Shown: piece after piece, positions 3,656-19,992 of the stretch | Position numbering within the stretch: position 1 is the first letter of the stretch | Layout of the letters: the number at the start of each line of letters is the position of its first letter | Source of the DNA: Gemmata obscuriglobus | Lineage (GTDB): Bacteria > Planctomycetota > Planctomycetia > Gemmatales > Gemmataceae | Direction of reading: 5' to 3' | Length of the DNA stretch: 32,000 bases | Assembly: GCF_008065095.1 (NCBI RefSeq) | Contig: NZ_CP042911.1 | Location: 1,680,001 to 1,712,000, forward strand | The notes under the pieces: model-generated | The model's input: only the letters and a program-made list of their open reading frames with translations | Database searches by the model: none | Told to the model about the DNA's origin: nothing | Program-made: the position numbers and the translations under genes

Positions 3656-3684
3656 CGATCCCCTTGTTTGCCCGGAGGCCCCAT

Positions 3685-4512: not shown

Positions 4513-4550
4513 CCCCGCGAGCCACCCCGACCCTTTTTGGAGACCCATAA

Positions 4551-6134: not shown

Positions 6135-6206
6135 TCCGCCCGCGGTGCCGCGGGACGTCCCCGCGGCAAGATGGCCCGAGCCGCGCGGGCCGAACGGAGG
6201 TGTGTG

Positions 6207-6653
6207 ATGGGTGCGAAGGAAGTCCTGGACAAGATCCGGGACGAGGTGGCTCCGGTGAAACAGGCTCTGGGGCAGGTCCTGGAAAAGCTGGAGCCGACGA
6301 GGCAGTTTCTCGGGAAGGCGTGGGACGTGGCCCAACCGGCCTTTGACCATGGACGCAGTGAGGCGGCGGCCGCGCTGTTCAGCGGCAGTGCCTACGTGAT
6401 GTACCAGCGCTCGGCGCCCGGACCGGAGGACGCCAAGGGGTTGACCCCTGAGGGGGTTGCTCCCGAGGGACTCACTTTCGAGGGCATCGCTACCGAAGCG
6501 AACGCTCCTGAAGGCATCACCTCCGAAGGGATCGCCCAGCCCCTTGTGAGCCCGGAGAAACCCATGGGCATGGACGAGCTGCGGGCCCTGGCACGCGAAG
6601 CCAAGGCCGCGCGGGGCATGGAGCCGGAATGCGACAACGAGTTGGAGCTGTGA
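6207..6653 (+). CDS. hypothetical protein with xxxEG pentapeptide repeats
   Basis: ATG preceded by 'ggagg'. Coding-like composition. Repeats read 'LTPEG VAPEG LTFEG IATEA NAPEG ITSEG'. Confidence 0.55.
   Translation: MGAKEVLDKIRDEVAPVKQALGQVLEKLEPTRQFLGKAWDVAQPAFDHGRSEAAAALFSGSAYVMYQRSAPGPEDAKGLTPEGVAPEGLTFEGIATEANAPEGITSEGIAQPLVSPEKPMGMDELRALAREAKAARGMEPECDNELEL
6441..6536 (+). repeat. 15-nt periodic coding repeat (xxxEG, about six units)
   Basis: Read directly from the translation of 6207..6653. Confidence 0.6.
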
Positions 6654-6734
6654 GCCGAGCCGCGGGGGCGTTCCCGCCCCCGCGCTGATTCGTTCACTGA
6701 GGGATCTGTCCCTTTCACCCGAGCGAGATGAGTC

Positions 6735-7676: not shown

Positions 7677-8533
7677 AAGCGCTATTCGGAACGCTGATCG
7701 CTCTGGCGCTCGTGCCCGGGACGGGGCTCGCGCAGGGACGCGCGAAGGCGATACAGGAGGTGGCCGAACTGTTGGTCGCCCGCGGCGGGACGGCCGGGCG
7801 AAGCGTGCCGCACCTGGCCGGGAGGATCGAGGCCCTGGCGGCCCGACACGGGGACGAGGCGCTCGTCGCGCTCCGCCGGGGGGGCCCGGAAGGCGTCGCG
7901 CTCGTGGAGGCGGCCGGCCCGAACGGTGCCAAAGCCCTTCGGGTGCTCGCCGCGCACGGTGAGGAGGGGGCCGCGCGGGTGCTCTCCCGCCCCACGTCCA
8001 TGAAGCAGTTCCTGCAGCACGGGGACGAGGCCGCGTCGGTGCTAGTGCGGCACCCGGGGGTGGCCGAGCCGCTGATCGAAAGCGGCGGGGCGCACGCGGT
8101 GCGCGCCCTCGGAGCGGTCACCCCGCAAAACGGGCGGCGGGTGGCGATGCTCCTGAACGGTGAGCTGGCGGCGGGCGCCGCCCGGCACCCGGAGGTGCTC
8201 GGGGTGGTCGCCAAGCACGGGGATTCGGCCGTCGAGTTCCTGTGGCGTAACAAGGCCACGCTGGCCGGCGGGGCGGCGCTTACGGCGTTCCTGGCCGATC
8301 CCGAGCCGTTCCTCAGCGGGACCCGCGATCTCGCCGCGGTGGCCGGAGACTCGGTGGTCAAACCGGTGCTCGGCGGGGTGTTCACGCTGCTGAACGTCGC
8401 GCTGGTCGTGCTCGGGGTCGTGCTCCTGGCGGCGATCGGGCTGGTGTGCAAGTACGGGCTCCCGAGCGGGGAGGTCGTGCGCGCCGCGGTGGCCGTCCTC
8501 GGCCCCAAGCACCCGCCCCAACAGGGGGCGTAA
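7673..8533 (+). CDS. secreted or membrane-anchored helical-repeat protein (hypothetical)
   Basis: GTG start overlaps the upstream stop and is preceded by 'aggggg'. Signal-like 'KALFGTLIALALVPGTGLAQG'. The repeated motif 'HG[DE][ES]A..' occurs at least four times. C-terminal TM 'VFTLLNVALVVLGVVLLAAIGLV'. Confidence 0.55.
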   Translation: MKALFGTLIALALVPGTGLAQGRAKAIQEVAELLVARGGTAGRSVPHLAGRIEALAARHGDEALVALRRGGPEGVALVEAAGPNGAKALRVLAAHGEEGAARVLSRPTSMKQFLQHGDEAASVLVRHPGVAEPLIESGGAHAVRALGAVTPQNGRRVAMLLNGELAAGAARHPEVLGVVAKHGDSAVEFLWRNKATLAGGAALTAFLADPEPFLSGTRDLAAVAGDSVVKPVLGGVFTLLNVALVVLGVVLLAAIGLVCKYGLPSGEVVRAAVAVLGPKHPPQQGA

Positions 8534-8721
8534 TGAACGAGAGCCTGACCGAGGACGTGTGCGCCGCGAGCGCGGCGTACTGTCTCAACTGTGTGCTGCC
8601 GCGCCTCAATGCGCTGACGCCGAGCGAGCAGTTTGAACGGCTGAAGGCGTGCTTCGAGGCCGCCCTGGCCGCGTACCGGGACGGGGTACGCGGGTGGGTT
8701 TACGAACCGTCCGACAACTGA
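8533..8721 (+). CDS. small hypothetical protein (62 aa)
   Basis: Its ATG overlaps the upstream TAA (taATG), suggesting translational coupling. Same strand as the rest of the block. Confidence 0.45.
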   Translation: MNESLTEDVCAASAAYCLNCVLPRLNALTPSEQFERLKACFEAALAAYRDGVRGWVYEPSDN

Positions 8722-8951: not shown

Positions 8952-9224
8952 GTGCTTACCGTGCGCGAGGCGGCGGAACGGGCCGCCGTGTCGGAGTCGC
9001 TGATTTATGCTTGGTGTGCCGACGGCACGCTGCCGCACATGCGCCTCGGCCGGAAGGGGAAGCGGGGCACGATCCGCATCCGCGTCGAGGACCTGGACGG
9101 GATGATGGCCGCGTTCAAGGTGTCGGGTCCTTCGGCTTCCGCCCCGGCTTCTTCGGGTTCACCGGCTTTGCCCTTTTCCGAGTTGAACTCTCAGCGGCTT
9201 GCGAAGGCATGGAGGCGGGGTTGA
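8952..9224 (+). CDS. excisionase/AlpA-like HTH (HTH_17-type) DNA-binding protein
   Basis: GTG start 5 nt after 'ggagc'. 'LTVREAAERAAVSESLIYAWCADGTLPHMRLGRKGKRGTIRIRVEDLDGMM' fits the excisionase-family HTH pattern. The last ~33 codons are antisense to the integrase-gene remnant, so they may be a fortuitous extension. Confidence 0.65.
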   Translation: MLTVREAAERAAVSESLIYAWCADGTLPHMRLGRKGKRGTIRIRVEDLDGMMAAFKVSGPSASAPASSGSPALPFSELNSQRLAKAWRRG

Positions 9225-9225
9225 T
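9115..9225 (-). pseudogene. displaced 3'-terminal fragment (last 36 codons plus stop) of a tyrosine-recombinase gene
   Basis: The reverse strand reads INPASMPSQAAESSTRKRAKPVNPKKPGRKPKDPTP*. The intact integrase C-terminus at 18647..18760 reads INGVSVPLQAVEGSTRKRAKPVNPKKPGPKPEDVPQL*. My hand nucleotide alignment gives about 81 of 100 identities, with a 46-nt core carrying one mismatch. Similarity stops abruptly at 9225/9226. Confidence 0.75.
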
Positions 9226-9330
9226 ATTATATGTATTAAATTTAATAAATTAAGATTACAAAATATGCTTGATACACGTCAAAAATATCTCATAATATCG
9301 TAGTTATTTTAAATATGCTTATTTAGATCG
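9226..9330. other. AT-rich non-coding junction block
   Basis: 'attatatgtattaaatttaataaattaagattacaaaatatgctt...' stands out against a ~70% GC background. It starts exactly where the integrase-remnant homology ends. Confidence 0.7.
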
Positions 9331-9333
9331 TTC

Positions 9334-9894
9334 GTGGAGGGCCTAAGCCGATCCTGCTCCTGCTGTTTGAATCCGGAGTGCCCGGGCTTCGGAAGCCTGA
9401 CGATCCCGGCACGATATGTGCTAAACGGGCCCCGCCTGCTCCGCTGTTCCACATGCCGGGCGCGGTTCTCCGAGCGTATGGACCCCTGCTGTACGGGCCG
9501 GTTGTCGGCTCCGAAGGTGGTCACGGTGCTGAGCCATGTGGCCGAAAGGATCGGAACACGGAAGACTGCCCGGTCGGCCGGGGTGCGTCGGGACACCGTC
9601 ACTTGACACACCTGAGCGGCCGGTGAACAGGCCCGCCACCACCATGAGTTCGTGGCTCTTTCCCCCTCGGACCAACAAGGTCTAATTCGATGAGAAGTAG
9701 TCGTTCGTGGACCGGAAGGAGAAGTACTGCGGATCCGAGGGCACCGCGGGGACTGTTGGGATCATGTGGCTCTGGACCCGGAGTGCCCGTTCCCGGAGCT
9801 CGTCCCGTTCCTCGGACGTGAAACGAGGCGCGCTCATGACTCGTTCTGCCCATCAGTTATGGCGAAACCGCACCGCGAATCTCTCACTCGATAG
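9334..9894 (+). pseudogene. IS1-like transposase gene, decayed (nonsense mutation plus frameshifts)
   Basis: The N-terminal zinc-ribbon/HTH part is intact: 'CSCCLNPECPGFG...RCSTCRARFSER...AERIGTRKTARSAGVRRDTV'. Downstream, 'FDEK*SFVDRKEKYC' has TAG where the DE(K)WSFV motif expects Trp. The next conserved piece, 'CWDHVALDPE', is in another frame. Confidence 0.6.
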
Positions 9895-9912
9895 AGCGAG
9901 AGACATTGCAAG

Positions 9913-9920
9913 CCGCGACG
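9913..9920. repeat. target-site duplication (left copy) CCGCGACG of the ISAs1-family IS
   Basis: An identical 8-mer directly abuts both inverted repeats (9913..9920 and 11173..11180). Confidence 0.7.
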
Positions 9921-11172
9921 CCAGGGCCGTTCCGTTATTCACTTTGAGGGATGCCGATAAGTTTGTGTGCGTACTCGGGGTGTAACTGGAGCCATTCGAG
10001 TGCTTCGGGTGTGCTGCGTGCCGGAACGTTACCCAGCAGGTGGATGGCGGCGTTGCGGAGCGCGGCGAGCACCTGCGGCGCGGCCCCCTTGCGGACCCGG
10101 CACGCATCCTCGCGCAGGGTCACATCCCGCACGTAATGGAGTTGGTTCTCGATGTGCCAGTGCGATCGAACCCAATCCAGAAGTGCTCGTGCGTCGGCCC
10201 GCTCGGGCGGTAAGCTGGTGATCCCGTGCACCACCTCCACCGTGGTCGCGCCGTTCGTGGTCCGGGTGCGGGTCATCCGGAACCCCTGCTTGAGCCCCTT
10301 CCACCGGTCGTGGGCGGTCACGATCGGGGTGGCCCGCAGGGTCCGCTTCTCGATCCGCCCGTGCCCCTTGTCCACCGTTGTCGCCTGGCGCCCCAGTTGC
10401 TCGGGCGTTGGGACCGGCTCGGGGGGAAGTAGCCGCCGCGATCCCTCGGGCGGCGTCCTCGAACCCGAGCCCGGCCTCGATGCTGGCCACCAGCCCCGGT
10501 TGGTTGTCCTTGGCCACCAGCACGTAATCCGCACCGCCGGCGATCACCGCCGCGGCCACGTCCCGCTGGCAGAACATCGCGTCCCCGGTGAGTACCGACC
10601 CGGCTACCGGTAGGATGCCCAGCAGCGCGAGGGCCGCCTTGTGCTCGTTGGTCTTGGCGTCCACCCGCACCTGGGCCAGCACCGCGTGGGCCGCCGGGGC
10701 GTACGCGGCCACCAGGTGCTGGCCCGGCACTTGGCCGTCCCGGCTGCCGCGCAACGTCTTGCCGTCCAAAGCGATGTGCGTCCGGGCCACGGGGCCGACG
10801 CGCCCGTCGAGCCATCGGGTCAGGGCCGCTTCGAGTTGCTGGGGATCGAACCGGCGCAGGGTCCGGGACAGGGTCGACGCGGCCGGGGTCTTGCCGCGTC
10901 GGAACCCGAGCGCGTGAGCCAGCGGGAACCCGTGCTGGCGCCCGAACCGAGCGATCCCCTGGAGGCTCGTGCGCCCCATCAGCAGGGCCAACGTGACCAA
11001 CCCGAGCACCGCCGGCAGCGGGTGAATCAGGCCCTGCAACCCGCGCGGGTCCGGGATCGTTGACAACTCCTCATACAGCGAGCGCGCGGGCATCGAGCAC
11101 CTCGGGCCGAAGGAGTTCCCCATCTATCTAACAAACCCGCTCGCGCCAAGATGAAATAAGGAACGGCCCTGG
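9921..11172 (-). mobile_element. ISAs1-family insertion sequence (about 1.25 kb)
   Basis: The left terminal inverted repeat is CCAGGGCCGTTCCGTTATTCA. The reverse complement of the right end is CCAGGGCCGTTCCTTATTTCA. The element is flanked by the 8-bp direct repeat CCGCGACG and encodes an ISAs1-type transposase. Confidence 0.8.
9935..11123 (-). pseudogene. ISAs1-family (H-repeat-associated type) transposase, frameshifted
   Basis: The N-terminal ORF 10029..11123 carries '...IPDPRGLQGLIHPLPAVLGLV...ALDGKTLRGS...DAKTNEHKAAL...TGDAMFCQRDVA...DYVLVAKDNQP'. The C-terminal ORF 9935..10534 carries 'DKGHGRIEKR...HWHIENQLHYVRDVTLREDACR'. The frames switch at a G6 run (10421..10426). Removing one G joins '...AATSP' to 'EPVPTPEQLGRQATTVDKGHGRIE'. 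Confidence 0.8.
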
Positions 11173-11180
11173 CCGCGACG
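11173..11180. repeat. target-site duplication (right copy) CCGCGACG
   Basis: See the left copy at 9913..9920. Confidence 0.7.
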
Positions 11181-11310
11181 CGACCTCCTCAACACGCTTC
11201 TTGCGGCTACCGGGTTGATCGGGTACAACATTACTACATGGAGATTCACTTTTCCGAGTGATCCGTTCTGCCTCGTTGGCCGAAGCTCGGTCTGGGGGCT
11301 GCTCGTTTCC

Positions 11311-12063
11311 ATGCCAGATTACCACTTCCGGGAGGTATCGTTGCGCTCGCTGCGTCACGCTCTGGTAGCGGTCGAATCGTTCTTCCTGCACGACTGGTTC
11401 GTGCCGTCGGCGGTCGAGGCCATCCCCAGTAACAAGCCATTGAGAGAACTGGTCGAACGCGACCTCCTATGGCCGCTGCGCCAAGACGTTGTGGGGCGAT
11501 TGTCTGCCAGGTTCTTGCTGGTCGGCCTGCTTACTGCCGGCCTGAGCGCAGCGTTGTCCCGGGGTGACTTGCTGACACATGTTTCGGGCAGCGAGTTGCT
11601 TATCCAAACGGCGACACTGGGAACCAGTGTCGCCGTGTGCCTCGTGACCTTAATCGCGCTGGGAGTTTTCGAACTCGTCGTTCCGACGCACGTGGGGCGG
11701 GCCTCCGTCCTCGGTTATTTCGACGGCTCGACTCGCAAAGGCAATCCGGTCGGAGACTGGCTGTACAACGCTCTGCTTTCTGTCAAGCTAGGTAACTTAG
11801 GGGCGGTGATACCGTACTACATTAACGCCTCACGGGAGCACTCGTTCAGCCCCGAGAGTAGGGATGAACTCAGACGAGTGGACGCTGCCGTCCGGAATGC
11901 AGTCGAAGGAATCCAAGCCGCACCAAAGTGGAACTCGAAAGTGTTCGCAGAGGTAGTCGGGGAGGTCACCTACTCGCGTTGCATGTGGCATTTGGTGATG
12001 TACCTGGCCGGAGTCGCGGCGAATCTTTTCACGGTTGCCGCATTCCGGTTGCCCCCGCACTGA
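11311..12063 (+). CDS. multi-pass membrane protein, unknown function (first gene of the low-GC cargo block)
   Basis: ORF 11215..12063; I prefer the first ATG at 11311 because the track start is TTG. Hydrophobic segments: 'ARFLLVGLLTAGLSAAL', 'LGTSVAVCLVTLIALGVFELVV', 'HLVMYLAGVAANLFTVAAF'. The start codon is uncertain. Confidence 0.5.
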   Translation: MPDYHFREVSLRSLRHALVAVESFFLHDWFVPSAVEAIPSNKPLRELVERDLLWPLRQDVVGRLSARFLLVGLLTAGLSAALSRGDLLTHVSGSELLIQTATLGTSVAVCLVTLIALGVFELVVPTHVGRASVLGYFDGSTRKGNPVGDWLYNALLSVKLGNLGAVIPYYINASREHSFSPESRDELRRVDAAVRNAVEGIQAAPKWNSKVFAEVVGEVTYSRCMWHLVMYLAGVAANLFTVAAFRLPPH

Positions 12064-12086
12064 TTACACGCCTGTGAGGCCGACAG

Positions 12087-13433
12087 ATGAAGAAGAACGC
12101 CCTGACTCTCCTGCTGCTGGCCGGCGTCGTGGCGCTCGGCGTGTGGTCCTGGACTTCGCGGGACGAAGCGAAACGCGCCGCAACAACCCGAGAACAGTAC
12201 GACCGCGAGGTCCAACAGTGGATGAGCGGGACGGTCGAAACGCTCCGCAAACAGGCCAGCTCACAGGCAGATACCAACCGCGTCTTGCTGGACTCGGTGC
12301 GGGCGCAGACGAAGCAGATCGACGACCTCCGCAAGCAGGTCGAAAGGCAACTTGTGCCGGCACAGGTCAGGAAGCAGATGATGGACAAGGGCGGCAACGG
12401 CCTGACCGAGGATGAGAGCAAGCAGATCAAGGACGACACTGACACCGCCAAAAAACACACCGCCGAGGTGGAAGACTCAGACGCACGCAAGAAGCTCGAC
12501 GACGCGATAAGGAAGGCTGATGAGATCGCCAAGAACCCGATAAAGTCGTTGGAGTCAAAAGACGCGCAGGACGCGTTGAAGAAGACGATAGACGAACTCA
12601 AAGCGGAAGAGGAGAAATCGAGAAAGCTGATCGAACAGCTCGGCAAGCAGCGACAAGAGCAAGAAAAACAAATCAAGGAGCTAAAGAAAAAGAAAGACCG
12701 TACGCCGGAGGAGGAGGAGCGGCTCAAAAAGCTCGAACAAGAGAAACAGGAGGTCGAGAAAAAGCTCGAGGCTGAGCGAAAGAAGAACGAAACCACCCGC
12801 CTCGTACTCACGCTCCTGAAGAACCTGCTAAACGCGGCAGCCCTCATCGCTTTCGCGAGCGGGAATCCTGAACTCGCCTTCGCGCTAATGACACTGGCGA
12901 ACGCCATACCGTCGGGTGGTGGTGAAGGGCCTGGTAGTGGCGACAAAGACGGCACCAAGGATGGAACCAAGGACGGCACCAAAGACGGCACCAAAGACGG
13001 GGATAAGGATGGCGACAAGGGTGACTATCCCGATCCGCCCAACCCGCCGTCTACAAGCCCGCCGCCCACGACCACGCCGCAAAAAGTTGAGAACCCGAAA
13101 CCGGACGAGAAACCGCAGCCCGCAAAGAACAGCGGCAATGTGGATGGCGGCGGTGGTGACTACGAACTGCTGCTGCAAGGCAAAGAACTTTCACGCCGGA
13201 AAGCAGGCGGCTCGGCCTGGGACTTCTTCATGCAGGTGGACGATAGCGGGGTCGAGAAACTCAAGACTGGGGTGGGAGTGGTCATCGCTATGACCGATGG
13301 TGACGGCATCCGTCGGGTCTATGTCGAGTCGCCAAAAGGCTCGAAGACATACTGGATGATCGAGGTGCGTGAGGAAGGCCGCGGCAAGATGACAATGCGG
13401 CCAATCAGTGCCAAGGACTTGCCTGAACGCTGA
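12087..13433 (+). CDS. TolA/TonB-like modular envelope protein (N-terminal TM anchor, K/E-rich coiled coil, Gly/Asp/Lys repeats, Pro-rich linker, small C-terminal domain)
   Basis: ATG 7 nt after 'gagg'. Anchor 'MKKNALTLLLLAGVVALGVWSW'. About 200 aa are charged helical sequence, for example 'EQEKQIKELKKKKDRTPEEEERLKKLEQEKQEVEKKLEAERKK'. The protein also has '(DGTK)4(DGDK)2', the Pro-rich 'YPDPPNPPSTSPPPTTTPQKVENPKPDEKPQP', and a ~95-aa C-terminal domain. The similarity to TolA/TonB is architectural only. The SHLS-type His motif is absent from the TM. Confidence 0.7.
   Translation: MKKNALTLLLLAGVVALGVWSWTSRDEAKRAATTREQYDREVQQWMSGTVETLRKQASSQADTNRVLLDSVRAQTKQIDDLRKQVERQLVPAQVRKQMMDKGGNGLTEDESKQIKDDTDTAKKHTAEVEDSDARKKLDDAIRKADEIAKNPIKSLESKDAQDALKKTIDELKAEEEKSRKLIEQLGKQRQEQEKQIKELKKKKDRTPEEEERLKKLEQEKQEVEKKLEAERKKNETTRLVLTLLKNLLNAAALIAFASGNPELAFALMTLANAIPSGGGEGPGSGDKDGTKDGTKDGTKDGTKDGDKDGDKGDYPDPPNPPSTSPPPTTTPQKVENPKPDEKPQPAKNSGNVDGGGGDYELLLQGKELSRRKAGGSAWDFFMQVDDSGVEKLKTGVGVVIAMTDGDGIRRVYVESPKGSKTYWMIEVREEGRGKMTMRPISAKDLPER
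12942..13025 (+). repeat. 12-nt tandem coding repeat (DGTK x4, DGDK x2 and flanking units)
   Basis: The repeat 'gac ggc acc aag/aaa' and its variants are read directly. On the opposite strand it produces the spurious SLVP-repeat ORF. Confidence 0.85.
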
Positions 13434-13475
13434 CCGGTGAACGACCGGCCCGCGCACCTCAGAGTAGACTGCCAC

Positions 13476-14309
13476 ATGGGACGGCCTCGCGAGATAAACG
13501 TGTTCTCGACGTCTTTCCTTGACCTGCTGTCGTGCGGGATGGGGGCGGTGATCATCCTGCTCATCATCTTCTTGAGTAGGCTGCGGATTGAGCCACGCGA
13601 CGCGGCCGCATTTGCGTCGGTCTCGTTCAGAGTCGATTACGGCGACATTCCAATTGTGGCCCACCGTGAGGTCTGGACCTTGGACGGCAAACCACTCCTC
13701 GCGATTCGACCAAGCGGCGATAGCGCCAAGCCGTTCGAGTATACGGTAGGTTCGGCTCCGACGTTCGTGGGGTTGGAGAGCGAGGCTGTGCCGAGGGTGG
13801 GGGGGGCTTCGAACCTGGACGGGGCCGACGTGACAAGCAACTTTTGGCGAGACCCGCTGGACGCGCCAAAGCTGACGTTTCCCGGCCGCGCGTCTGGAGG
13901 TGTGGTCTGCAGGCTCACGGACCACATGCCTACCGGACGGCGGCAGACATCAATATCCATCCGCGATTGGAACTCGCCGAGGGCTGTCACCTACTCTGTC
14001 CATCGGGGTTTGATCTCCGCATCTTCTGCGCATCACTTTGATGACAATCTCAACTTCGTAGGCGGTCCAGCTCCAAACGGTAGAGGGTGGGTGTCGCATA
14101 CCTACGCAGGTCGAGAAGAAGTTATATACACATTGCCAACTAGAGTGAGCGTGTCTATATACACAACAAACTCAGCCGTGTCATTCAACAGGGACATTTA
14201 CACGTACCAGTTCGTAAAATCGCCGAACGGCACATTTTCGATATCGATCATTCTAGATCCCGATGCAGAGCCGGGTACTGACCCGGTGAAGCAGGTGGGG
14301 TGGCCATGA
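13476..14309 (+). CDS. MotB/ExbD/TolR-type single-pass protein, paralog 1 (stator B-subunit-like TM with conserved Asp; novel ~230-aa periplasmic part)
   Basis: From the ATG at 13476 the protein reads 'MGRPREINVFSTSFLDLLSCGMGAVIILLIIFLS'. Compare E. coli ExbD 'DINVTPFIDVMLVLLIIF' and the MotB/PomB pattern 'TFADLMT'. The Asp sits in the TM helix. The remainder is beta-rich with no motif I recognise. Confidence 0.65.
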   Translation: MGRPREINVFSTSFLDLLSCGMGAVIILLIIFLSRLRIEPRDAAAFASVSFRVDYGDIPIVAHREVWTLDGKPLLAIRPSGDSAKPFEYTVGSAPTFVGLESEAVPRVGGASNLDGADVTSNFWRDPLDAPKLTFPGRASGGVVCRLTDHMPTGRRQTSISIRDWNSPRAVTYSVHRGLISASSAHHFDDNLNFVGGPAPNGRGWVSHTYAGREEVIYTLPTRVSVSIYTTNSAVSFNRDIYTYQFVKSPNGTFSISIILDPDAEPGTDPVKQVGWP

Positions 14310-14836
14310 GAACCCGAGAGATCACTGTCTTCAGCACCTCGTTCCTCGACCTACTCTCCTGTGGTCTGGGGGCTGTGATCCTGCTCTGCCTCGTTTTCGC
14401 CGCCTCGAAAATGTCTCAGGGTAGGGTGAAGGGCGAGACAACCCTAATTCGTGTTCGCGTCGTGCCGCACACGGGCAGCGCACCTCCGAAGCTCGGCGTT
14501 TACGTCGAACTCGGCGATGTCGGCTGCCGGCTGAGCGCGGGAGAGCCGCCGCTGGCTGTGGGGGGAGTGAAGTTGAGCATCATCCCACAAGATCTCGGCG
14601 CGAACGAGTATACCGTCGTGCTGACCGGAGAGCGATTCGACCGCACCCACCGCGTGGGTGTATACATCCACGACTACGCTGACGCCCCCCGCCAAGGGAT
14701 CGACGTGGAAGTCGAACGGTACGGGAAAGGTGCATCGACCAAGGACAAGGTGCAGTTGAAACCGGGTGAGGCGGCCCACCGAAGTTTCACGCTTGAGGGG
14801 GTCGAGTCAGATACCTACAGTTTCCGATGGGAATGA
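14306..14836 (+). CDS. MotB/ExbD/TolR-type single-pass protein, paralog 2
   Basis: The ATG overlaps the stop of the upstream gene (ATGA). 'MRTREITVFSTSFLDLLSCGLGAVILLCLVF' is nearly identical at protein level to the paralog 1 N-terminus but differs at many synonymous sites. The ~135-aa periplasmic part is unrelated to that of paralog 1. Confidence 0.65.
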   Translation: MRTREITVFSTSFLDLLSCGLGAVILLCLVFAASKMSQGRVKGETTLIRVRVVPHTGSAPPKLGVYVELGDVGCRLSAGEPPLAVGGVKLSIIPQDLGANEYTVVLTGERFDRTHRVGVYIHDYADAPRQGIDVEVERYGKGASTKDKVQLKPGEAAHRSFTLEGVESDTYSFRWE

Positions 14837-14843
14837 GAGCGTG

Positions 14844-15707
14844 ATGAGGCGTTGGAGGCGGACATTGACCTTCACTGGCGTCGTCCTCGCCGGGGCGACT
14901 GTCGTCGGTCCATTCACCGTTACCACGGCCCAGCCCCCAACCACAAGTAGTTCACAACTTGCCCAGCGTTTCACGACACTGAACGGGTACTTGGACCCCA
15001 AGGCCAAGCAACTCGGCTACTATTCGAGCATGTCTGACTTTCGGGTCTACCTGAGCGACGCGAACGATCAGGTCTGGCTAGAGTGGGGGCCGCGCTCCGA
15101 CTGTCAGCGGATCGACCCCGTCACAAGCCAGCAGTTCTGGAAAGACATGCTGAACAACACTTATCCGGGAGAATTGAGGCCGGCCCACAAGTACGCTTCG
15201 TTTCTCGATGTGGTGTCCAAATTCGGCCAAGGCGGGAAGCAGATCGGGTACCGTGAGTCGCAGGCGGCAGATGCCTTTTTCATCTTTCAGAAAGACACGC
15301 GTTCGGTATTAACCGCTCGTGTGGCCTCCCCGCTGCTTTCTCTGCCATACGACCTAGACGTGTTCGAGGACGGCATCGCCTCCGAAGCCCTGCAACCGCT
15401 ACTCACTCTCGTGGCGGCCGAGACGCACTCGGCCCGCTGGATCGGATTGGGCAGGGAGGGGGTAGCGTTCGCCACGGCGAGGGAGTACAGGATTGCCGAG
15501 TGGCGGTCGGGTGCACTGCGCCCGACCCGATCGCACCTTATTGCGCGCTGCGGACTTCCTGGTTGGGTCAGGACGCTCGGAGGAGTGGACCCAGCGGTGG
15601 CGGGCATGGATGCCGTCGCCGCGCTCGCAGTCACCTCGCCAGATGTGTGGCACTCACACCCTTACAGCTACCCGTCCGATCCGGATGTGTGGTTCTTCGG
15701 AGACTAA
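14844..15707 (+). CDS. secreted or periplasmic protein of unknown function
   Basis: ATG at 14844 (GTG at 14841 is also possible), 5-8 nt after the upstream stop. Signal-like 'MRRWRRTLTFTGVVLAGATVVGPFTVTTAQP'; the RR pair could be Tat-like, with low confidence. Confidence 0.6.
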   Translation: MRRWRRTLTFTGVVLAGATVVGPFTVTTAQPPTTSSSQLAQRFTTLNGYLDPKAKQLGYYSSMSDFRVYLSDANDQVWLEWGPRSDCQRIDPVTSQQFWKDMLNNTYPGELRPAHKYASFLDVVSKFGQGGKQIGYRESQAADAFFIFQKDTRSVLTARVASPLLSLPYDLDVFEDGIASEALQPLLTLVAAETHSARWIGLGREGVAFATAREYRIAEWRSGALRPTRSHLIARCGLPGWVRTLGGVDPAVAGMDAVAALAVTSPDVWHSHPYSYPSDPDVWFFGD

Positions 15708-15710
15708 CCT

Positions 15711-17780
15711 ATGTCAAGCGGAGTTGCGCAGTCCGGTGGCGGGGAGGACCCAACTGGCGAGCCGACTCGCAAAAGTCTTCGCGAGCGTTGGTCGCAAATC
15801 GTCGGCAAACTGAAGCGTCGTCCCACTACGCCCCCAGAATCCAATCTTCAGCCCCCGCCTCCACCAAACCGGGTGGTCAGAATGCTGACCGGGGGCAGCC
15901 TGCTCGGGCTATTGATCTTGTGCGTTGTCAGTTGGAGCCTCGCCTGGCTCACGTTTTTCGCTCTGGGGCTGATCTTCAATTCGACACTCTATTCAGACAT
16001 CCGCAGTTTCAAATCGTTTTCCCCAGCGGACAAACTAGAATGCTACGCACGAGCTATCGGTTATCCGCCGTCAGACCTAAAATCGTTCGCCGAACCGGCG
16101 TCAGCCACAGTCCTGAGTCGATCGGTGCTATCTCCGACGCTCACCAAAGAGGGCAGGGAAGAGTTGCAGAAGTTGGCGGTTATGCAACCGTACCGTGTGG
16201 TGGGACACACTCAACTGACCAGTGCTCGCGAAGGGAAGGAGCAGTGGCATAAGGTGGGCTCGGAAGTGGGGTTGCCACAGCCCGACGGCCCGTCTTTTGC
16301 CGTTGTTTGGCGGAGCGGTGATGGGCCGCCGGCAGGGGCCGCCGATGGCGACAAGCCAAAGCCGAACGCCAAGGTGGAAATGCCTCTGGTGTACGTCTTG
16401 GAGATTAAGGCAGTAGAGGTGGGGTTACAGTTCAAAATCGTTGCCCGGTATTTTCCCGTCATCGACGGCAAGGAGCAGCCGTCCGCGGTGAAGGAAGCTT
16501 TCGTCGTGCTCGACCGGCCAACGTACTGGTTCGCGGCGCTACAACCCTGTGCGGTCAACCACTCGGCCGGCGAGTTAGCGTCGCGCTTCGTCGATCAGAT
16601 GAAGGCTGATGTCCGAGGCCGGCCGAACCTGGTGAACATCGTTCTCAAGGATCGGGCGAAGGTGCAAGAGGTCGAGACGTTCATTCAACAAGTGATTCTC
16701 AGGAAACTGGGAAAGGAATTGCCATCAGGCGGCAGTGAGCAAGGGTTGCGGACTGACCGTGAATACGAAACGCTGGAGCAGCGAACGGCTTGGCCGCGCC
16801 GGCTTCAAGGTAGCGATGTTCTCGGCGTCATCCAGTTCCTGACGGTCGTTGCGTTCTGGGCGGCGGTCGTCATTTACTTCGCCCAATGGCGTGTCGTGGA
16901 GAACCAGCGCGACTACCTCGAGAGCGGTGAGCTGTTCCCGACGGACGACACTACGGTTGATCACGATCATGTCGAAGCGCGAGTCCGCAGCCTCGAAGCA
17001 TTGCGGCAGAAGTACCGCGAGGGCCAAGGCAGAGACAGCGTGATTGCCTGCATCCCGCTTGAGATCGCGTACAGTGGCTACTGCGGGCTGATCGCGGCGA
17101 ATATGCGCGCCGAAGGTGTGCCGGCCTTCGTCCAGACTCGCGTGTCGCTCTTCTTGGAGCGAGCCGGTAGCCGTCAGTGGCTGTTCCGGTTCTTGGTCTG
17201 GCTCATCCCCTCGATCGGGTTTGTCGGCACGGTCATTGGCATTGGAGACGCGCTTCTCGGCACAGGCGACGTGCTCTCTACCAACCCGCTACAGCAACAG
17301 TCCGCCATTCAAGCTATCGCGGGAAAGCTCGGCACAGCATTTGATACTACGTTTGTGGCGCTGATACTTAGCATCGTTACAATGTTCATGATTGGCTCGA
17401 TTCAGAAGAGCGAGGAGGAACTCATCCAACGTGCAGCCGAGCGGACGCTGAACTCGCTCATCGACCCGAACCAAGTTTCGGCGCCGCCCCATGCCTCATT
17501 ACAGCCGCTCCACCTGCAACCCGCCACGGCGGTCACCGCCGCACCGAACCCGTCTGCACCGCGCCGGCCGCAGCAACCGGTGGTACTTCGATTGCGTGAG
17601 ATAAGGCCGTTGCGTCGGCGTTACTCTGCCGACGCAATCGCGATTGTGGTCGGTATTACCATCACGTTAGGCAGTTTGACGATCTACTTCGGGAAGGACT
17701 CTGCCGCAGCTTTGGCGGTTGAGTCACAGATAAAAGCACAGTGGGCCAATTTGTCCAAGTATGCCAAACAACGCGAGTGA
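15711..17780 (+). CDS. MotA/TolQ/ExbB-family proton-channel protein with large N- and C-terminal extensions
   Basis: 689 aa. The family signature lies in the C-terminal half: 'WLFRFLVWLIPSIGFVGTVIGIGDALLG' (PxxGxxGTVxG helix) and 'KLGTAFDTTFVALILSIVTMFMIGSI' (A..TT..G/A helix). The preceding TM is 'VLGVIQFLTVVAFWAAVVIYF'. An extra N-terminal TM hairpin 'LLGLLILCVVSWSLAWLTFFALGLIF' is followed by a ~270-aa domain. There is also an extra C-terminal TM 'AIAIVVGITITLGSLTIYF'. Confidence 0.7.
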   Translation: MSSGVAQSGGGEDPTGEPTRKSLRERWSQIVGKLKRRPTTPPESNLQPPPPPNRVVRMLTGGSLLGLLILCVVSWSLAWLTFFALGLIFNSTLYSDIRSFKSFSPADKLECYARAIGYPPSDLKSFAEPASATVLSRSVLSPTLTKEGREELQKLAVMQPYRVVGHTQLTSAREGKEQWHKVGSEVGLPQPDGPSFAVVWRSGDGPPAGAADGDKPKPNAKVEMPLVYVLEIKAVEVGLQFKIVARYFPVIDGKEQPSAVKEAFVVLDRPTYWFAALQPCAVNHSAGELASRFVDQMKADVRGRPNLVNIVLKDRAKVQEVETFIQQVILRKLGKELPSGGSEQGLRTDREYETLEQRTAWPRRLQGSDVLGVIQFLTVVAFWAAVVIYFAQWRVVENQRDYLESGELFPTDDTTVDHDHVEARVRSLEALRQKYREGQGRDSVIACIPLEIAYSGYCGLIAANMRAEGVPAFVQTRVSLFLERAGSRQWLFRFLVWLIPSIGFVGTVIGIGDALLGTGDVLSTNPLQQQSAIQAIAGKLGTAFDTTFVALILSIVTMFMIGSIQKSEEELIQRAAERTLNSLIDPNQVSAPPHASLQPLHLQPATAVTAAPNPSAPRRPQQPVVLRLREIRPLRRRYSADAIAIVVGITITLGSLTIYFGKDSAAALAVESQIKAQWANLSKYAKQRE

Positions 17781-17815
17781 CTGGCCGAGGACTTCCGGTC
17801 ACCACCAGTCGCGAG

Positions 17816-18331
17816 TTACGGCCCTTTGAACTCGACTGTAATCTCCCGCTCGGGCGTGGAGTTCGGCTTGTCGGCCCCGTAAAACTTCAGCCGGAACTTC
17901 TTCAGCGTCTCGGGGGCGATCTTCTCTTTCGTCTTTTCGTCTGTCGTGGCCGGGCCGCAGAGGATACACCCGTCCGAGTGGTCCGGTTTGTTTCCGGCGT
18001 GGAACTGAATGAACTCCCACTTCTTCCCGCCGGCAGTGAACGTGTCCAGTTCGATCAGGAAGTCGCCCTTTTTGCTCAGGACGCCGCCCGGCCCCTGAAC
18101 GTGGTTTTTGCCGGACTCGTATCGAAGGTGAGCCTTGTAGGTGCCGGCCGGGACGTGCTTGTCAGCCCGCTCGTAAACCGTACCCACCGCCTCACCGTTC
18201 ACGGAGAGCTTTCCGACGATGAGTCCGTCCTTGGTCTCGCCCCTCGTCACCACCACCTTGAACGGGTCGGCGGCCGGGGCTGCGGAAGCAGCAAAGAGGA
18301 TGACCCACGCGGAGAGCGAGCACTTGCCCAT
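17816..18331 (-). CDS. secreted protein with a His...Ser-x-Gly-Cys motif (DUF5675 / YkuD-like, tentative)
   Basis: 171 aa. ATG preceded by 'aggggg'. Signal peptide 'MGKCSLSAWVILFAASAAPAA'. 'GKLSVNGEAVGTVYE...VPAGTYKAHLRYES...FIQFHAGNKPDHSDGCILCG' resembles the DUF5675 pattern and the L,D-transpeptidase H..S.GC motif. It is convergent with the cargo operon. Confidence 0.55.
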   Translation of the reverse strand: MGKCSLSAWVILFAASAAPAADPFKVVVTRGETKDGLIVGKLSVNGEAVGTVYERADKHVPAGTYKAHLRYESGKNHVQGPGGVLSKKGDFLIELDTFTAGGKKWEFIQFHAGNKPDHSDGCILCGPATTDEKTKEKIAPETLKKFRLKFYGADKPNSTPEREITVEFKGP

Positions 18332-18404
18332 GATGGCCCCCTGACTTGAGGTGGTAGCTGAAAGCGATCATACGGCGCGGGCGGGAAGAGTGAAGACGGG
18401 CGAC

Positions 18405-18495
18405 TCTTAATTGATTGCTTTATATACACTCTTAAATTTTTAATACACCACAATTATTGGAATTTCTATTGGTATTCTATATGTGTAAATTATCA
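18405..18495. other. AT-rich non-coding block (right junction of the low-GC region; probable promoter region for 17816..18331)
   Basis: 'ttaattgattgctttatatacactcttaaatttttaatacaccacaattattggaatttctattggtattctatatgtgtaaattatc'. Confidence 0.6.
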
Positions 18496-18646
18496 CGCAT
18501 TGAAAACGACGCGGCGGTTGCAACGCAATCGCGGTCGGCGTGCTCCCGCTGGTAAATAAAGAGTTAAGCGACCGATCTTATCGCAGTCGCGTCCGCCCTT
18601 TGCGGGTTGTGGCTTCGGCGTGAGGCTATTTCGCGTTTGACGTCGC

Positions 18647-19771
18647 TCAAAGTTGGGGTACATCCTCTGGCTTTGGTCCCGGCTTCTTTGGGTTCACCGG
18701 CTTTGCCCTTTTCCGAGTTGAACCCTCCACAGCTTGCAAAGGCACGGAAACCCCGTTGATCCTGTTCACCGCATCTTTCAGGTGCTGGTGCTGATCCGCG
18801 AGGTGCACGTACACCTTGGAAATCATCTCCTGCGACGTGTGCCCCATCAGTTCCGCCAATGTCTGGCCATCAACGCCCGCGAGAATCGCCCGGGTTCCAA
18901 ATCCGTGGCGGCACAAATAGGCACACACGTCCTTGGGCAGTTCCAACTTCCTCTTGATTCGCCATACCTGCAGCCGAAGGGCGTTCATCGTCCACGGCAG
19001 GCCTTCGGTGTTCAGGAAAACATGCGTGTGCCCGTTCCCTCGGAGCCGGCCGGTGATCTCCTTCAACGGCCCGGTTAGGTAGATCACGCGCGGCTTGCCC
19101 GACTTCTTCCCGGTCTTGTGCTCTATCAACACCCAGCGGTCCTCTTGAACCTGATCCCATGTCAGTTCCCGCACCTCCTTCGGCCGCGCGCCGGTAAGGT
19201 AGAGAGCGAGCAGCAAATCCTTCAACGGTCCGCCAGCGTTCTCGTGCATCTTCCAAAACTCGACGTCGGTGATCGCCCGCTGTCGGGGCCGCGGCTTCGG
19301 GTTCTTCATCCCATCGATCGGGTTCTCGGGCAGAAGTTTCCGTTCTGCTGCCCACGAGAACACCCTCCCTGCGGCCTTCCGCGCGTTGTAGACGGTTGTC
19401 TCGCCCCATTCCTCCGCCTCGACCTTGGGGTCGATCCAGCGGTCGATGTGGTATGGCTTCAGCTCGCGGGCGAGCACTTCGCCGCACGCCTCGGCGAAGA
19501 GCTGGCAGTAATACTTGTTCAGGCGGTGGGTGTCGGCAGCGAAGTGGACGCGGCTGTGATGGAGGAACGCCTCGATCACGTCGGCGGTTCGACTCCCCAC
19601 CGCTTCCGGAGCGGTGCGGCGGAGTTTCCGCAGCTCAATGTATTTCTCTTCCGCGAGGTGCCGGTGGTGGTCGTCGTTCGGCCCTTGCACGAGGCGGGTC
19701 TTCTCGCCCCCGAGGGTGATCATCCACCAGCCGATGTCGGACCTGTACCAAACCTTTGCCGGGCGTGCCAT
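18647..19771 (-). CDS. int: tyrosine recombinase / phage-type integrase
   Basis: 374 aa. ATG preceded by 'aggggg'. C-terminal catalytic motifs 'ALYLTGARPKEVRELTW', 'AYLCRHGFGTRAIL' and 'LAELMGHTSQEMISKVYVHL' give the R...HxxR...H...Y pattern. Confidence 0.85.
   Translation of the reverse strand: MARPAKVWYRSDIGWWMITLGGEKTRLVQGPNDDHHRHLAEEKYIELRKLRRTAPEAVGSRTADVIEAFLHHSRVHFAADTHRLNKYYCQLFAEACGEVLARELKPYHIDRWIDPKVEAEEWGETTVYNARKAAGRVFSWAAERKLLPENPIDGMKNPKPRPRQRAITDVEFWKMHENAGGPLKDLLLALYLTGARPKEVRELTWDQVQEDRWVLIEHKTGKKSGKPRVIYLTGPLKEITGRLRGNGHTHVFLNTEGLPWTMNALRLQVWRIKRKLELPKDVCAYLCRHGFGTRAILAGVDGQTLAELMGHTSQEMISKVYVHLADQHQHLKDAVNRINGVSVPLQAVEGSTRKRAKPVNPKKPGPKPEDVPQL
18661..18760. repeat. direct repeat partner of 9126..9225 (integrase 3' end)
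   Basis: Hand alignment gives about 81 of 100 identities, with a 46-nt core (9143..9188) carrying one mismatch. Both copies end in GTTGAT. Confidence 0.75.
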
Positions 19772-19846: not shown

Positions 19847-19894
19847 ATCAATGTGCGAAAAAGACTCATTTTCCAGCGATTGACTCCCTGAACC

Positions 19895-19941
19895 GCGGCC
19901 TCCGGAGCCGAAGGTTACAGGTTCAACTCCTGTCGGGCATA
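19895..19941 (+). tRNA. partial tRNA-Arg(CCG): anticodon arm to 3' acceptor strand only (att-site remnant, not a functional gene)
   Basis: The anticodon stem-loop gcggc-CTCCGGA-gccga gives anticodon CCG. It is followed by the variable loop aggtt, the T-arm acagg-TTCAACT-cctgt, the acceptor 3' strand cgggcat and discriminator a. No complementary 5' acceptor strand (atgcccg) or D-arm exists upstream. Confidence 0.55.
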
Positions 19942-19992
19942 CTGGAAAACAAAGGGTTTCGTGAAGGGTGCAGAGCAGAGTGCACCAAACCC

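What the first reader, a model, noticed from the sequence alone, without database searches (positions are those of the whole stretch)
9115..18760. A ~9.4-kb segment bracketed by two diverged copies of the integrase-gene 3' end
The last 36 codons plus stop of an integrase gene are present twice in direct orientation. One copy is the real C-terminus of the intact int (18647..18760). The other is an orphan fragment at 9115..9225, still in frame, about 81% identical over 100 nt by hand alignment. Both copies end in the same GTTGAT, after which the orphan copy runs into AT-rich DNA. Two models fit. (a) An element inserted site-specifically into the int 3' end and brought a surrogate 3' end that keeps int intact, as tRNA-targeting islands do. 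The displaced original end then sits next to the excisionase-like gene. (b) Two related elements lay in tandem, and a deletion, possibly IS-mediated, removed most of the left integrase. Either way the MotA/MotB-like cargo lies inside the bracketed segment.
Basis: seen in the sequence. Interest (0 to 1): 0.7.

Follow-up and report, generated by a model that had tools for sequence, protein, structure and literature searches.

The report
Cargo splits overlapping integrase–excisionase gene pair
In a mobile element of Gemmata obscuriglobus, the integrase and excisionase genes normally share about 110 bases read on opposite strands, but here 9.4 kb of foreign DNA sits between them and the shared stretch exists twice so each gene keeps its own end, which is a neat though not revolutionary product of mobile-element rearrangement.

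Summary
The repeat is real: 98 nt at 83% identity (111/114 nt at about 80%), with a 34-nt identical core, far above chance. The left copy is not an orphan. On the + strand it is the working 3' end of the HTH_17 excisionase-like gene (8952-9224). The right copy is the 3' end of int on the - strand. In about 40 related planctomycete loci, int and xis converge and overlap tail-to-tail, mostly by 101-125 nt. The integrase's own target is a tRNA gene, with a tRNA 3' half at 19895-19943, not the overlap. The bracketed 9.4 kb has lower GC. It holds no recombinase, only one ISAs1 element with its own target duplication, and no terminal repeats. One unrelated metagenome locus (L057) shows the same stop-to-stop duplication around a 1-kb insert. 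Limnoglobus (L007) shows a tandem pair of int/xis modules with one int truncated. Best reading: two int/xis modules came to lie in tandem and each lost the redundant gene. Only the stretches that encode the surviving partner's tail remain. The cargo is a rare MotA/ExbB-type operon. Verdict: new variant of a known kind, moderate interest.

The parts
8952..9224 (+). Excisionase-like gene (xis), 90 aa. HTH_17 domain at aa 1-53, then a tail with the family motif PFSELNSQRLAKAW.
   Evidence: Pfam HTH_17 E=1.4e-10. Full-length alignment to relatives' 90-93 aa xis proteins.
9115..9225 (.). Left copy of the overlap (OV_L). The + strand encodes the last 37 codons of xis. The - strand holds a vestigial int tail (36 codons plus stop) with no int body attached.
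   Evidence: It is 85-90% identical to the single overlap of L003/L004/L007.
9155..9188 (.). 34-nt core identical to 18690-18723. It is the longest identical run shared by the two copies. Public short-read assemblies of the cargo end here.
   Evidence: Logan contigs end at 18719, inside the core.
9226..9330 (.). AT-rich left junction of the inserted DNA (about 25% GC in a 67-74% GC backbone). It contains a sigma-70-like promoter match at 9269-9298 (+).
   Evidence: No significant repeat shared with the right AT-rich block.
9920..11173 (-). ISAs1-family insertion sequence with 27-nt terminal inverted repeats and a frameshifted transposase (10029-11123 and 9935-10534). It is flanked by the direct repeat CGCGAC (9914-9919 and 11174-11179), so it is a simple insertion inside the cargo.
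   Evidence: I6. NCBIfam transpos_ISAs1 3.4e-40. Pfam DDE_Tnp_1. Flanks read.
11311..12063 (+). Cargo gene c1, 250 aa, three hydrophobic segments, no family match.
12087..13433 (+). Cargo gene c2, 448 aa, Lys/Glu-rich coiled-coil-like region plus KDGT repeats, no family match.
13437..14309 (+). Cargo gene c3. Single-pass protein whose N-terminal helix (REINVFSTSFLDLLSCGMGAVI) carries an Asp, resembling the ExbD/TolR/MotB transmembrane helix. Paralogue of c4.
   Evidence: Sequence. BLASTP c3 versus c4 1e-14. No Pfam match.
14306..14836 (+). Cargo gene c4, 176 aa, paralogue of c3. Only 7 homologues found in 5.8 billion proteins.
14844..15707 (+). Cargo gene c5, 287 aa, N-terminal hydrophobic segment, no family match.
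   Evidence: Homologue adjoins the c6 homologue in L039.
15711..17780 (+). Cargo gene c6, 689 aa, with a MotA/TolQ/ExbB proton-channel domain at aa 465-574 after a long N-terminal region.
   Evidence: Pfam MotA_ExbB 1.1e-8. Weak ZorA hits, E about 6e-4, in that domain only. One full-length homologue at 48%. 11 representatives at E<1e-30.
17816..18331 (-). Cargo gene c7, 171 aa, DUF5675, with a signal-peptide-like N-terminus.
   Evidence: Pfam DUF5675 6.4e-12. Sequence.
18400..18490 (.). AT-rich right block of the inserted DNA.
18491..18646 (.). GC-rich spacer of unknown origin. At 156 nt it is about the length of a xis body (163 nt). No detectable xis HTH remnant.
   Evidence: tblastn and a profile HMM of 21 xis proteins find only the tail (hmm 53-92). 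No DNA match in any fetched locus.
18647..18760 (.). Right copy of the overlap (OV_R). The - strand encodes the last 37 codons plus stop of int. The + strand (18607-18759) is a degraded xis tail (PFSELNPPQLAKARKPR).
   Evidence: It is 79-82% identical to relatives' overlap. It carries 17 lineage-specific substitutions versus 7 in OV_L.
18647..19771 (-). Tyrosine integrase, 374 aa, full length like its relatives.
   Evidence: Pfam Phage_integrase 3.7e-18. 89-92% identical to P0002/P0003 and the Limnoglobus int. Family-invariant residues present.
19895..19943 (+). 3' half of a tRNA gene (T-arm ACAGGTTCAACTCCTGT plus acceptor strand). This is the att site and right end of the conjugative element.
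   Evidence: Block conserved upstream of int in window, L003, L004, L006, L007 and L008. Full tRNA-Arg(TCG) at the same place in L011. ARAGORN finds no whole tRNA in the window. Single copy in the window.
3367..8721 (+). Conjugative-element backbone upstream of xis: ParB (3367-4512), type IV coupling protein (4551-6134), and hypothetical genes syntenic with L003.
   Evidence: Pfam. Synteny in L003 and L006. tblastn.

Best explanation
The window holds a tRNA-gene-targeting integrative conjugative element of Gemmata obscuriglobus. In this family the integrase gene (int) and the excisionase-like gene (xis) converge, and their last ~37 codons are the same ~110 nt read on opposite strands. Here two such int/xis modules came to lie in tandem. 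I favour accretion of a second, related, cargo-carrying island at the same tRNA att site. A segmental duplication inside one element is the alternative. The redundant halves were then lost reciprocally: the int body of the left module and the xis body of the right module. What survives of each dead gene is exactly the stretch that is still needed as the coding tail of the live gene on the other strand. That is why the repeat runs from stop codon to stop codon. The result is one composite element: backbone, xis, 9.4 kb of lower-GC cargo (a MotA/ExbB-type operon, DUF5675 and a later ISAs1 insertion), int, att. Each overlap copy is now free of one of its two reading-frame constraints. Shown: the ancestral overlap, the empty site, the duplication limits, the tRNA att, the absence of a recombinase in the insert, and the analogues L007 and L057. 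Inferred: the order of events and the accretion origin.
For: Overlap is ancestral. Convergent int/xis overlap of 47-128 nt (mostly 101-125) occurs in about 40 loci, including all the closest relatives. An exact empty site is present. Both tails are real coding sequence. The xis motif FSEL[ND]P.RLAKAW and the int motif RKRA.PVNPKKPG persist even where the genes do not overlap (L011). They also persist across ints only 56-59% identical to the window's. Dual constraint is visible. The overlap is 85-89% identical among L003/L004/L007, versus 79-83% for the int body and 66-71% for the xis body. Constraint has been released after the split. OV_R has dropped to int-body level (79-82%). It has 17 private substitutions versus 7 in OV_L (p=0.064). 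It has lost the xis motif on + (Q>P, R>Q, W>R), yet shows only synonymous changes inside the int basic motif. OV_L keeps the xis motif. Tandem modules occur in the family. L007 has int1/xis1, then IS fragments, then int2 truncated at aa 242 overlapping xis2, with IS-type domains at the junction. L055 has a second xis. L057 shows the end state independently: a 125-nt stop-to-stop repeat at 76% identity around 1045 nt, with a tail-only xis by int and a tail-only int by xis. Elements of this family share a tRNA att, which is the condition for tandem accretion (PMC5704250). int/xis modules are shuffled among different backbones.
Against: No middle att copy and no second-element backbone genes survive in the insert. 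Profile searches find no xis HTH remnant next to OV_R and no int-body remnant next to OV_L. The left junction lies exactly 1 nt after the xis stop, which chance deletion endpoints do not predict. In L057 the repeat starts at the same relative position. The two window copies share no private derived substitutions, and none places them in different known lineages, so their origin is unresolved. The rate difference between the copies is only suggestive (p=0.064).
Confidence: 0.55

Rival explanations
1. Local duplication first. A short tandem duplication covering little more than the overlap (slippage or microhomology) arose inside a single element. This separated the two stop codons and created the only neutral slot between xis and int. 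Foreign DNA (AT-rich blocks, cargo operon, IS) was later inserted there by illegitimate recombination.
For: In both the window and L057 the repeats are confined to the stop-to-stop interval within a few nt. The two L057 copies share private features (TCAATCCTTCTTCC, xis tail WKKD) that no other relative has, and an ATCAA|ATCAA junction. Neither locus has any remnant of a second int body or xis body.
Against: A duplication of almost exactly the overlap would have to occur twice independently. The window copies have no shared private substitutions and are 17-20% diverged. A 9.4-kb insertion must then land in a slot a few nt wide. L007 shows that whole modules do occur in tandem.
Confidence: 0.25
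2. A discrete mobile element inserted site-specifically, or by one homologous plus one illegitimate crossover, into the int 3' end. It brought a surrogate int tail (OV_R) and displaced the original tail (OV_L) next to xis.
For: An empty site exists. OV_L resembles the relatives' native copy (85-90%), while the int-linked OV_R is the odd one (79-82%). The junction at 9225/9226 is sharp and foreign AT-rich DNA starts immediately. A 10-nt T-arm-like word of the element's own tRNA att (GGTTCAACTC) lies inside the overlap.
Against: There is no integrase, serine recombinase or active transposase in 9226-18646. The only IS is internal and has its own target duplication. The segment ends carry no inverted or direct terminal repeats. 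There is no mosaic host/element pattern around the identical core. The family integrase targets a tRNA gene. OV_R is equally far from every known relative, which is a long branch rather than a foreign lineage.
Confidence: 0.12
3. Artefact or chance. The repeat is a misassembly at a repeated sequence, or a similarity produced only by high GC content and similar amino-acid composition.
For: Short-read (Logan) contigs of the cargo break inside the 34-nt core.
Against: Two independent assemblies, one of them a complete genome, show the same order. The alignment score is 46 standard deviations above shuffles. Both flanks align to the relatives' single site.
Confidence: 0.01

Closest known systems
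Composite islands made by tandem accretion and deletion at a shared att site (ICESt1/ICESt3-type ICE-CIME composites; reviewed in PMC5704250)
   Same: Related elements use the same tRNA att site. They lie in tandem, then lose recombination or transfer genes by deletion, leaving one working integrase for the composite. L007 shows such a tandem with a truncated second int.
   Different: No internal att copy survives here. The internal direct repeat is not an att site but the dual-coding 3' overlap of int and xis. Both modules lost complementary halves.
tRNA- or gene-3'-end-targeting islands that carry a surrogate 3' end of the target gene (P4-like islands, actinomycete elements such as SLP1; from my own knowledge, not tested here)
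   Same: A direct repeat of a gene's 3' end brackets inserted DNA and keeps the gene intact. An empty site is found in relatives.
   Different: The bracketed DNA has no recombinase. The repeat is diverged along its whole length, with no host/element mosaic. The integrase next to it targets a tRNA gene, not this site.
Duplication-degeneration-complementation (subfunctionalisation) of duplicated genes (general evolutionary model; from my own knowledge)
   Same: Two copies of a bifunctional sequence each keep one function and lose the other. Release of constraint shows as faster change in the frame no longer used.
   Different: The bifunctional unit is a 110-nt antisense dual-coding segment rather than a gene with two expression domains. 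The outcome also creates a cargo slot in a mobile element.
Variable-region hotspots of conjugative elements (for example SXT/R391 hotspots; from my own knowledge)
   Same: Cargo sits between conserved backbone genes without disturbing them.
   Different: Here the two flanking genes overlapped, so accommodating cargo required a duplication of coding sequence.
Zorya and MotAB/ExbBD/TolQR stator-type systems (for the cargo only)
   Same: c6 has a MotA_ExbB domain. c3 and c4 have a single transmembrane helix with an Asp, as in ExbD/TolR/MotB. A homologous trio lies beside CBASS-like genes in L090.
   Different: There are no ZorB/C/D/E matches, and ZorA models hit only weakly in the channel domain. 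The MotA domain is C-terminal. There are no peptidoglycan-binding or ExbD Pfam matches.

Membership tests
Site-specific integrative element bracketed by att repeats (gene-3'-end surrogate type) | Direct repeats at both ends of the inserted DNA | tested here: met
   98-114 nt repeat at 80-83% identity with a 34-nt identical core.
Site-specific integrative element bracketed by att repeats (gene-3'-end surrogate type) | Own recombinase encoded inside the bracketed segment | tested here: not met
   Pfam, NCBIfam and PADLOC scans of all ORFs in 9226-18646 find only a frameshifted ISAs1 transposase with its own target duplication.
Site-specific integrative element bracketed by att repeats (gene-3'-end surrogate type) | Empty site in relatives | tested here: met
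   L003, L004/L005, L006 and L007 have a single overlap copy that joins both flanks.
Site-specific integrative element bracketed by att repeats (gene-3'-end surrogate type) | Host/element mosaic around a crossover core | tested here: not met
   OV_R differs from relatives on both sides of the identical core, and OV_L is native-like on both sides.
Site-specific integrative element bracketed by att repeats (gene-3'-end surrogate type) | Excision of the bracketed segment as a circle | not testable with these tools
   Needs PCR or long reads.
Integrative conjugative element with tyrosine integrase at a tRNA gene | Tyrosine recombinase next to an att site derived from a tRNA gene | tested here: met
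   Phage_integrase domain. 48-nt tRNA 3' half at 19895-19943, conserved in relatives, with a full tRNA-Arg in L011.
Integrative conjugative element with tyrosine integrase at a tRNA gene | Excisionase-type small DNA-binding protein | tested here: met
   HTH_17, 1.4e-10. The excisionase function itself was not tested.
Integrative conjugative element with tyrosine integrase at a tRNA gene | Conjugation genes (coupling protein, relaxase, mating-pore genes) | tested here: inconclusive
   T4SS coupling protein and ParB are in the window. TrwC relaxase was seen only in the syntenic relatives L003 and L006. The left part of the element lies outside the window.
Integrative conjugative element with tyrosine integrase at a tRNA gene | Second att copy at the other end | not testable with these tools
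   The left end is outside the 32-kb window. There is only one att copy in the window.
Composite (IS-flanked) transposon | IS copies at both ends of the segment | tested here: not met
   There is a single internal ISAs1 copy (9920-11173) with the flanking repeat CGCGAC. No terminal repeats at the segment ends.
Tandem accretion composite (ICE/IME/CIME) | Two recombination modules or their remnants in direct orientation | tested here: met
   Left: xis plus int tail. Right: xis tail plus int.
Tandem accretion composite (ICE/IME/CIME) | Internal att site between the two elements | tested here: not met
   No second copy of the tRNA-derived att, allowing up to 3 mismatches.
Zorya anti-phage system (cargo) | ZorA and ZorB plus ZorC/D or ZorE | tested here: not met
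   Only weak ZorA-model hits (E 6e-4 to 6e-3) in the MotA domain of c6. No other PADLOC hit.
MotAB/ExbBD/TolQR-type ion-driven motor (cargo) | MotA/ExbB/TolQ channel subunit | tested here: met
   PF01618 E=1.1e-8, above the gathering score.
MotAB/ExbBD/TolQR-type ion-driven motor (cargo) | Single-pass partner with conserved transmembrane Asp (MotB/ExbD/TolR) | tested here: inconclusive
   c3 and c4 have the helix ...FLDLLSCG.GAVI... with an Asp. They have no Pfam, NCBIfam or PDB sequence match.

The most novel reading that the evidence does not exclude
The int/xis tail overlap could be a dedicated, recurrent cargo-acquisition site of this planctomycete element family. A defined mechanism would open the element exactly at the xis stop codon (TTGAT|) and duplicate the dual-coding stretch. 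One candidate is the element's own integrase acting on the T-arm-like word GGTTCAACTC inside the overlap. Under this reading the window and L057 are two products of one programmed process rather than of accidental duplication and decay.
Probability: 0.07. Interest if true: 0.75.

Novelty: new variant of a known kind. Interest (0 to 1): 0.45.

Why it matters
Three points make this worth recording.

1. It documents a long antisense, dual-coding overlap between an integrase and its excisionase-like partner. The overlap is mostly about 100-125 nt, is conserved in about 40 planctomycete loci, and carries conserved protein motifs in both frames. I found no description of it in the searchable literature.

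2. The window and L057 are natural "unzipped" versions of that overlap. They allow a direct comparison of how the same sequence evolves under two reading-frame constraints versus one. They also show how overlapping genes can be separated without losing either.

3. For annotation, an in-frame integrase fragment beside an excisionase gene in these genomes is not by itself evidence of a decayed integrase or of an island boundary.

The rare MotA/ExbB-type cargo, with a homologue next to CBASS-like genes, is a candidate for a new envelope or defence system carried by a conjugative element.

Tried and rejected
- Terminal repeats of the insert: local alignment of 9226-9345 against 18336-18646, direct and inverted, scored no better than composition-matched shuffles.
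- Remnants of a second int body after 9225, or of a xis HTH before 18647: tblastn with nine xis proteins extended at most 10-28 nt beyond the overlap, on weak grounds. A profile HMM of 21 xis proteins matched only positions 53-92. I therefore dropped the claim that a xis pseudogene body is detectable.
- Second att copy in the window: none with up to 3 mismatches.
- DNA matches of the junction regions (9226-9920, 11174-11320, 18332-18660) in any fetched locus or elsewhere in the window: none.
- L011 as a second repeat-bracketed case: int and xis are 3.8 kb apart, but their tails share no significant DNA similarity. The element there is a primase-type island. It counts only as a non-overlapping relative.
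- IS-mediated origin of the window's junctions: the ISAs1 copy is internal and has an intact flanking repeat.
- IS200/IS605-like TTGAT targeting was considered because both repeats end in TTGAT. It was rejected because no HUH transposase is present, and TTGAT is explained by the xis stop codon plus the int Ile-Asn codons, conserved in relatives.
- Function of the cargo: PADLOC, NCBIfam, Pfam and PDB sequence searches gave only the MotA_ExbB and DUF5675 domains.
- Literature searches for this overlap or for Gemmata conjugative elements found nothing relevant.

Full report
**Source and gene content.** The window is from Gemmata obscuriglobus. The integrase protein is encoded identically in ABGO01000004 and in the complete genome CP025958 at about 6.31-6.33 Mb, with the same gene order in both. 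Searches give the following gene content:
- ECF sigma factors, ParB (3367-4512) and a type IV coupling protein (4551-6134), followed by hypothetical genes.
- An HTH_17 excisionase-like gene (xis), 8952-9224 on the + strand.
- A block of lower GC (52-63%, against 67-74% to its left).
- A tyrosine integrase (int), 18647-19771 on the - strand.
- A group II intron to the right.

The direct repeat is 9128-9225 versus 18663-18760, 98 nt at 83% identity. Its local alignment score is 56, against 7.6 +/- 1.0 for shuffles. Counted from stop codon to stop codon, the copies are 9115-9225 and 18647-18760, about 80% identical. They share a 34-nt identical core at 9155-9188 = 18690-18723.

The two genes that use the repeat lie on opposite strands. 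The right copy is the last 37 codons of int, read on the - strand. The left copy is the last 37 codons of xis, read on the + strand. Each copy also carries the other gene's tail as a vestige. The left copy holds an int tail with a stop codon on the - strand. The right copy holds a xis tail on the + strand, at 18607-18759.

**Relatives explain the repeat.**
- In a metagenome contig with an int 89% identical (L003), int and an HTH_17 gene converge and overlap tail-to-tail by 110 nt.
- The same arrangement, with 113 nt of overlap, occurs in contigs with 92% int (L004, L005), in Frigoriglobus tundricola (L006, 75%) and in Limnoglobus roseus (L007, 91%).
- BLASTN maps window 8952-9228 and 18647-19961 onto L004 6635-6356 and 6472-5163. 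These two stretches overlap by 117 nt.
- A multiple alignment shows the relatives' single copy continuing into the xis body on one side and the int body on the other.
- A survey of 72 loci from the genome and metagenome scans found the convergent overlap in about 40 of them. It is mostly 101-125 nt long and is present even for integrases only 32-34% identical.

**Both frames are real coding sequence.** The xis tail motif FSEL[ND]P.RLAKAW and the int tail motif RKRA.PVNPKKPG are conserved across distant relatives. Both also persist where the genes do not overlap, as in L011. The antisense phase pairs int codon position 3 with xis position 2. No site is therefore silent in both frames; this follows directly from the sequence. 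Consistent with that, the overlap is 85-89% identical among L003, L004 and L007. The int body is only 79-83% identical and the xis body only 66-71%.

**Evolution of the two copies.**
- The left copy keeps the xis motif and remains 85-90% identical to the relatives' overlap.
- The right copy has fallen to 79-82%, the level of the int body. It is the most distant sequence from every relative.
- The right copy has lost the xis motif on the + strand (PPQLAKAR). Inside the int basic motif it shows only synonymous changes.
- Against three outgroups there are 17 private substitutions in the right copy, 7 in the left copy and none shared (p=0.064).
- This fits each copy being released from one of the two constraints. 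The statistics are only suggestive, and the origin of the two copies remains unresolved.

**The integrase does not target the overlap.** A 48-nt block just upstream of int (19895-19943) is the 3' half of a tRNA gene. It is conserved in the window and in L003, L004, L006, L007 and L008. L011 has a complete tRNA-Arg(TCG) at that position. The element is therefore a tRNA-targeting integrative conjugative element whose right end lies at about 19943. No second att copy exists in the window.

**The bracketed DNA does not look like a discrete mobile element.**
- It encodes no recombinase.
- Its AT-rich ends (9226-9330 and 18400-18490) share no significant direct or inverted repeat.
- Its one IS (ISAs1 family, 9920-11173) has 27-nt inverted repeats and a frameshifted transposase. 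It is internal and flanked by its own CGCGAC repeat.
- There is no host/element mosaic around the identical core.

**Two further loci show how such a structure can arise.**
- L007 has int1/xis1 in normal overlap, then IS fragments (DDE_5 and an HTH_21 fusion), then a second int truncated at residue 242 that overlaps a second intact xis. That is two modules in tandem, with one int partly deleted.
- L057 is an unrelated metagenome contig whose int is 56% identical to the window's. It has the same end state as the window. A 125-nt repeat (76% identity) runs from stop codon to stop codon around 1045 nt of unrelated DNA. A tail-only xis frame lies beside int, and an int tail (INPSSTPVPIASGSTRKSVRPANPKKPKPK) lies beside the intact HTH_17 xis.
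- Elements that share an att site are known to accrete in tandem and then decay (PMC5704250).
- In this family, int/xis modules are combined with different backbones. The window's int is 89% identical to L003's, but its coupling protein is only 35% identical to L003's. That coupling protein is 52% identical to L009's, whose int is only 59% identical.

**Best explanation (confidence 0.55).** Two int/xis modules lay in tandem. I favour accretion of a related cargo-carrying island at the same tRNA site, with segmental duplication as the alternative. They then lost the redundant int body and xis body reciprocally. The repeat runs from stop to stop because only that stretch of each dead gene is still under selection, as the tail of the live gene on the other strand.

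**Weak points of the best explanation.**
- No internal att site survives, and no body remnants are detectable.
- The left junction falls exactly one base after the xis stop.

**Rivals.**
- A short local duplication of the overlap, followed by insertion of foreign DNA (0.25). The private similarities between the two L057 copies favour this.
- An artefact (0.01). This is refuted.

**Cargo.**
- Six co-oriented genes (11311-17780) end in a 689-aa protein with a C-terminal MotA/ExbB/TolQ domain.
- Two of the genes (c3, c4) are paralogues with a single transmembrane helix that carries an Asp, as in ExbD, TolR and MotB.
- A convergent DUF5675 gene follows.
- Apart from weak ZorA-model hits confined to the channel domain, the cargo matches no defence-system model.
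- The family is very rare.
- A homologous trio lies next to a patatin plus E1/E2/JAB cluster in L090. The cargo's function remains open.

**Verdict.** This is a new variant of known mobile-element rearrangement. Its interest lies mainly in the conserved dual-coding int/xis overlap and its two naturally "unzipped" derivatives.

Noticed in passing
window 19993-21900: A group II intron lies immediately after a strong terminator-like hairpin (19993-20018) downstream of the displaced tRNA 3' half. Rfam D1-D4 hits are at 20107-20283 and 20320-20443, and the RT/maturase ORF is at 20452-21900. This placement is typical of terminator-targeting bacterial introns.
   Followed up: partly
window 18715-18724 (-) and 19920-19929 (+): The 10-mer GGTTCAACTC of the tRNA T-arm in the att site recurs inside the right overlap copy, and with one mismatch in the left copy. 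These are the only two exact matches in 32 kb, with 0.05 expected. In the overlap it encodes xis FSELN and int GSTRK and is conserved in most relatives. Whether it is a pseudo-att site is unknown.
   Followed up: partly
L007 10001-13300 (Limnoglobus roseus NZ_CP042425): Two int/xis modules lie in tandem. The first is intact. The second int is truncated at residue 242 and fused to IS-type HTH_21 sequence, with a DDE_5 fragment in between. A further 548-aa integrase lies upstream.
   Followed up: partly
L057 6664-7958 (metagenome contig Ga0105048_10021379): An independent second case of stop-to-stop duplication of the int/xis overlap (125 nt, 76% identity) around 1045 nt of unrelated DNA that holds one ~220-aa ORF with no family match.
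   Followed up: yes
L090 9183-18026 (metagenome contig ERZ25070591 ctg147136): Homologues of the cargo core (two c3/c4-like genes plus a 642-aa MotA_ExbB protein) sit beside a patatin + Prok-E2/ThiF/JAB (CBASS-like) cluster and an HTH_3/Peptidase_M78 pair. This hints at a defence-island context for this rare operon.
   Followed up: partly
window 4551-6134 versus L003 and L009: The recombination module and the conjugation backbone have different affinities. int is 89% and xis 78% identical to L003, but the coupling protein is 35% identical to L003 and 52% to L009, whose int is 59% identical. This indicates module shuffling among these elements.
   Followed up: partly
window 12939-13022: A 12-nt tandem repeat encodes (K/D)DGT units inside cargo gene c2 (families D1 and D2).
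   Followed up: no
window 9334-9606 (+): A Cys-rich 90-aa ORF (CCLNPECPGFG...CSTCRARF) lies just inside the left AT-rich junction. It looks like a zinc-ribbon/HTH transposase N-terminus but matches no Pfam family.
   Followed up: partly
L042-L044 (Logan assemblies of SRR5887367, SRR5887506, SRR5887639): Short-read contigs of the cargo all end at window position 18719, inside the 34-nt identical core. One starts at 11144, inside the IS inverted repeat. Such assemblies break at exactly these repeats.
   Followed up: yes
L011 9839-19673 (Gemmata sp. MAG): A more distant int (58%) lies next to a full tRNA-Arg, with a free (non-overlapping) tail. Next come a 601-aa thiol-cytolysin-like gene and a 277-aa gene, then xis 3.8 kb away and a 1026-aa AEP primase. 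This is a non-conjugative island using the same recombination module.
   Followed up: partly
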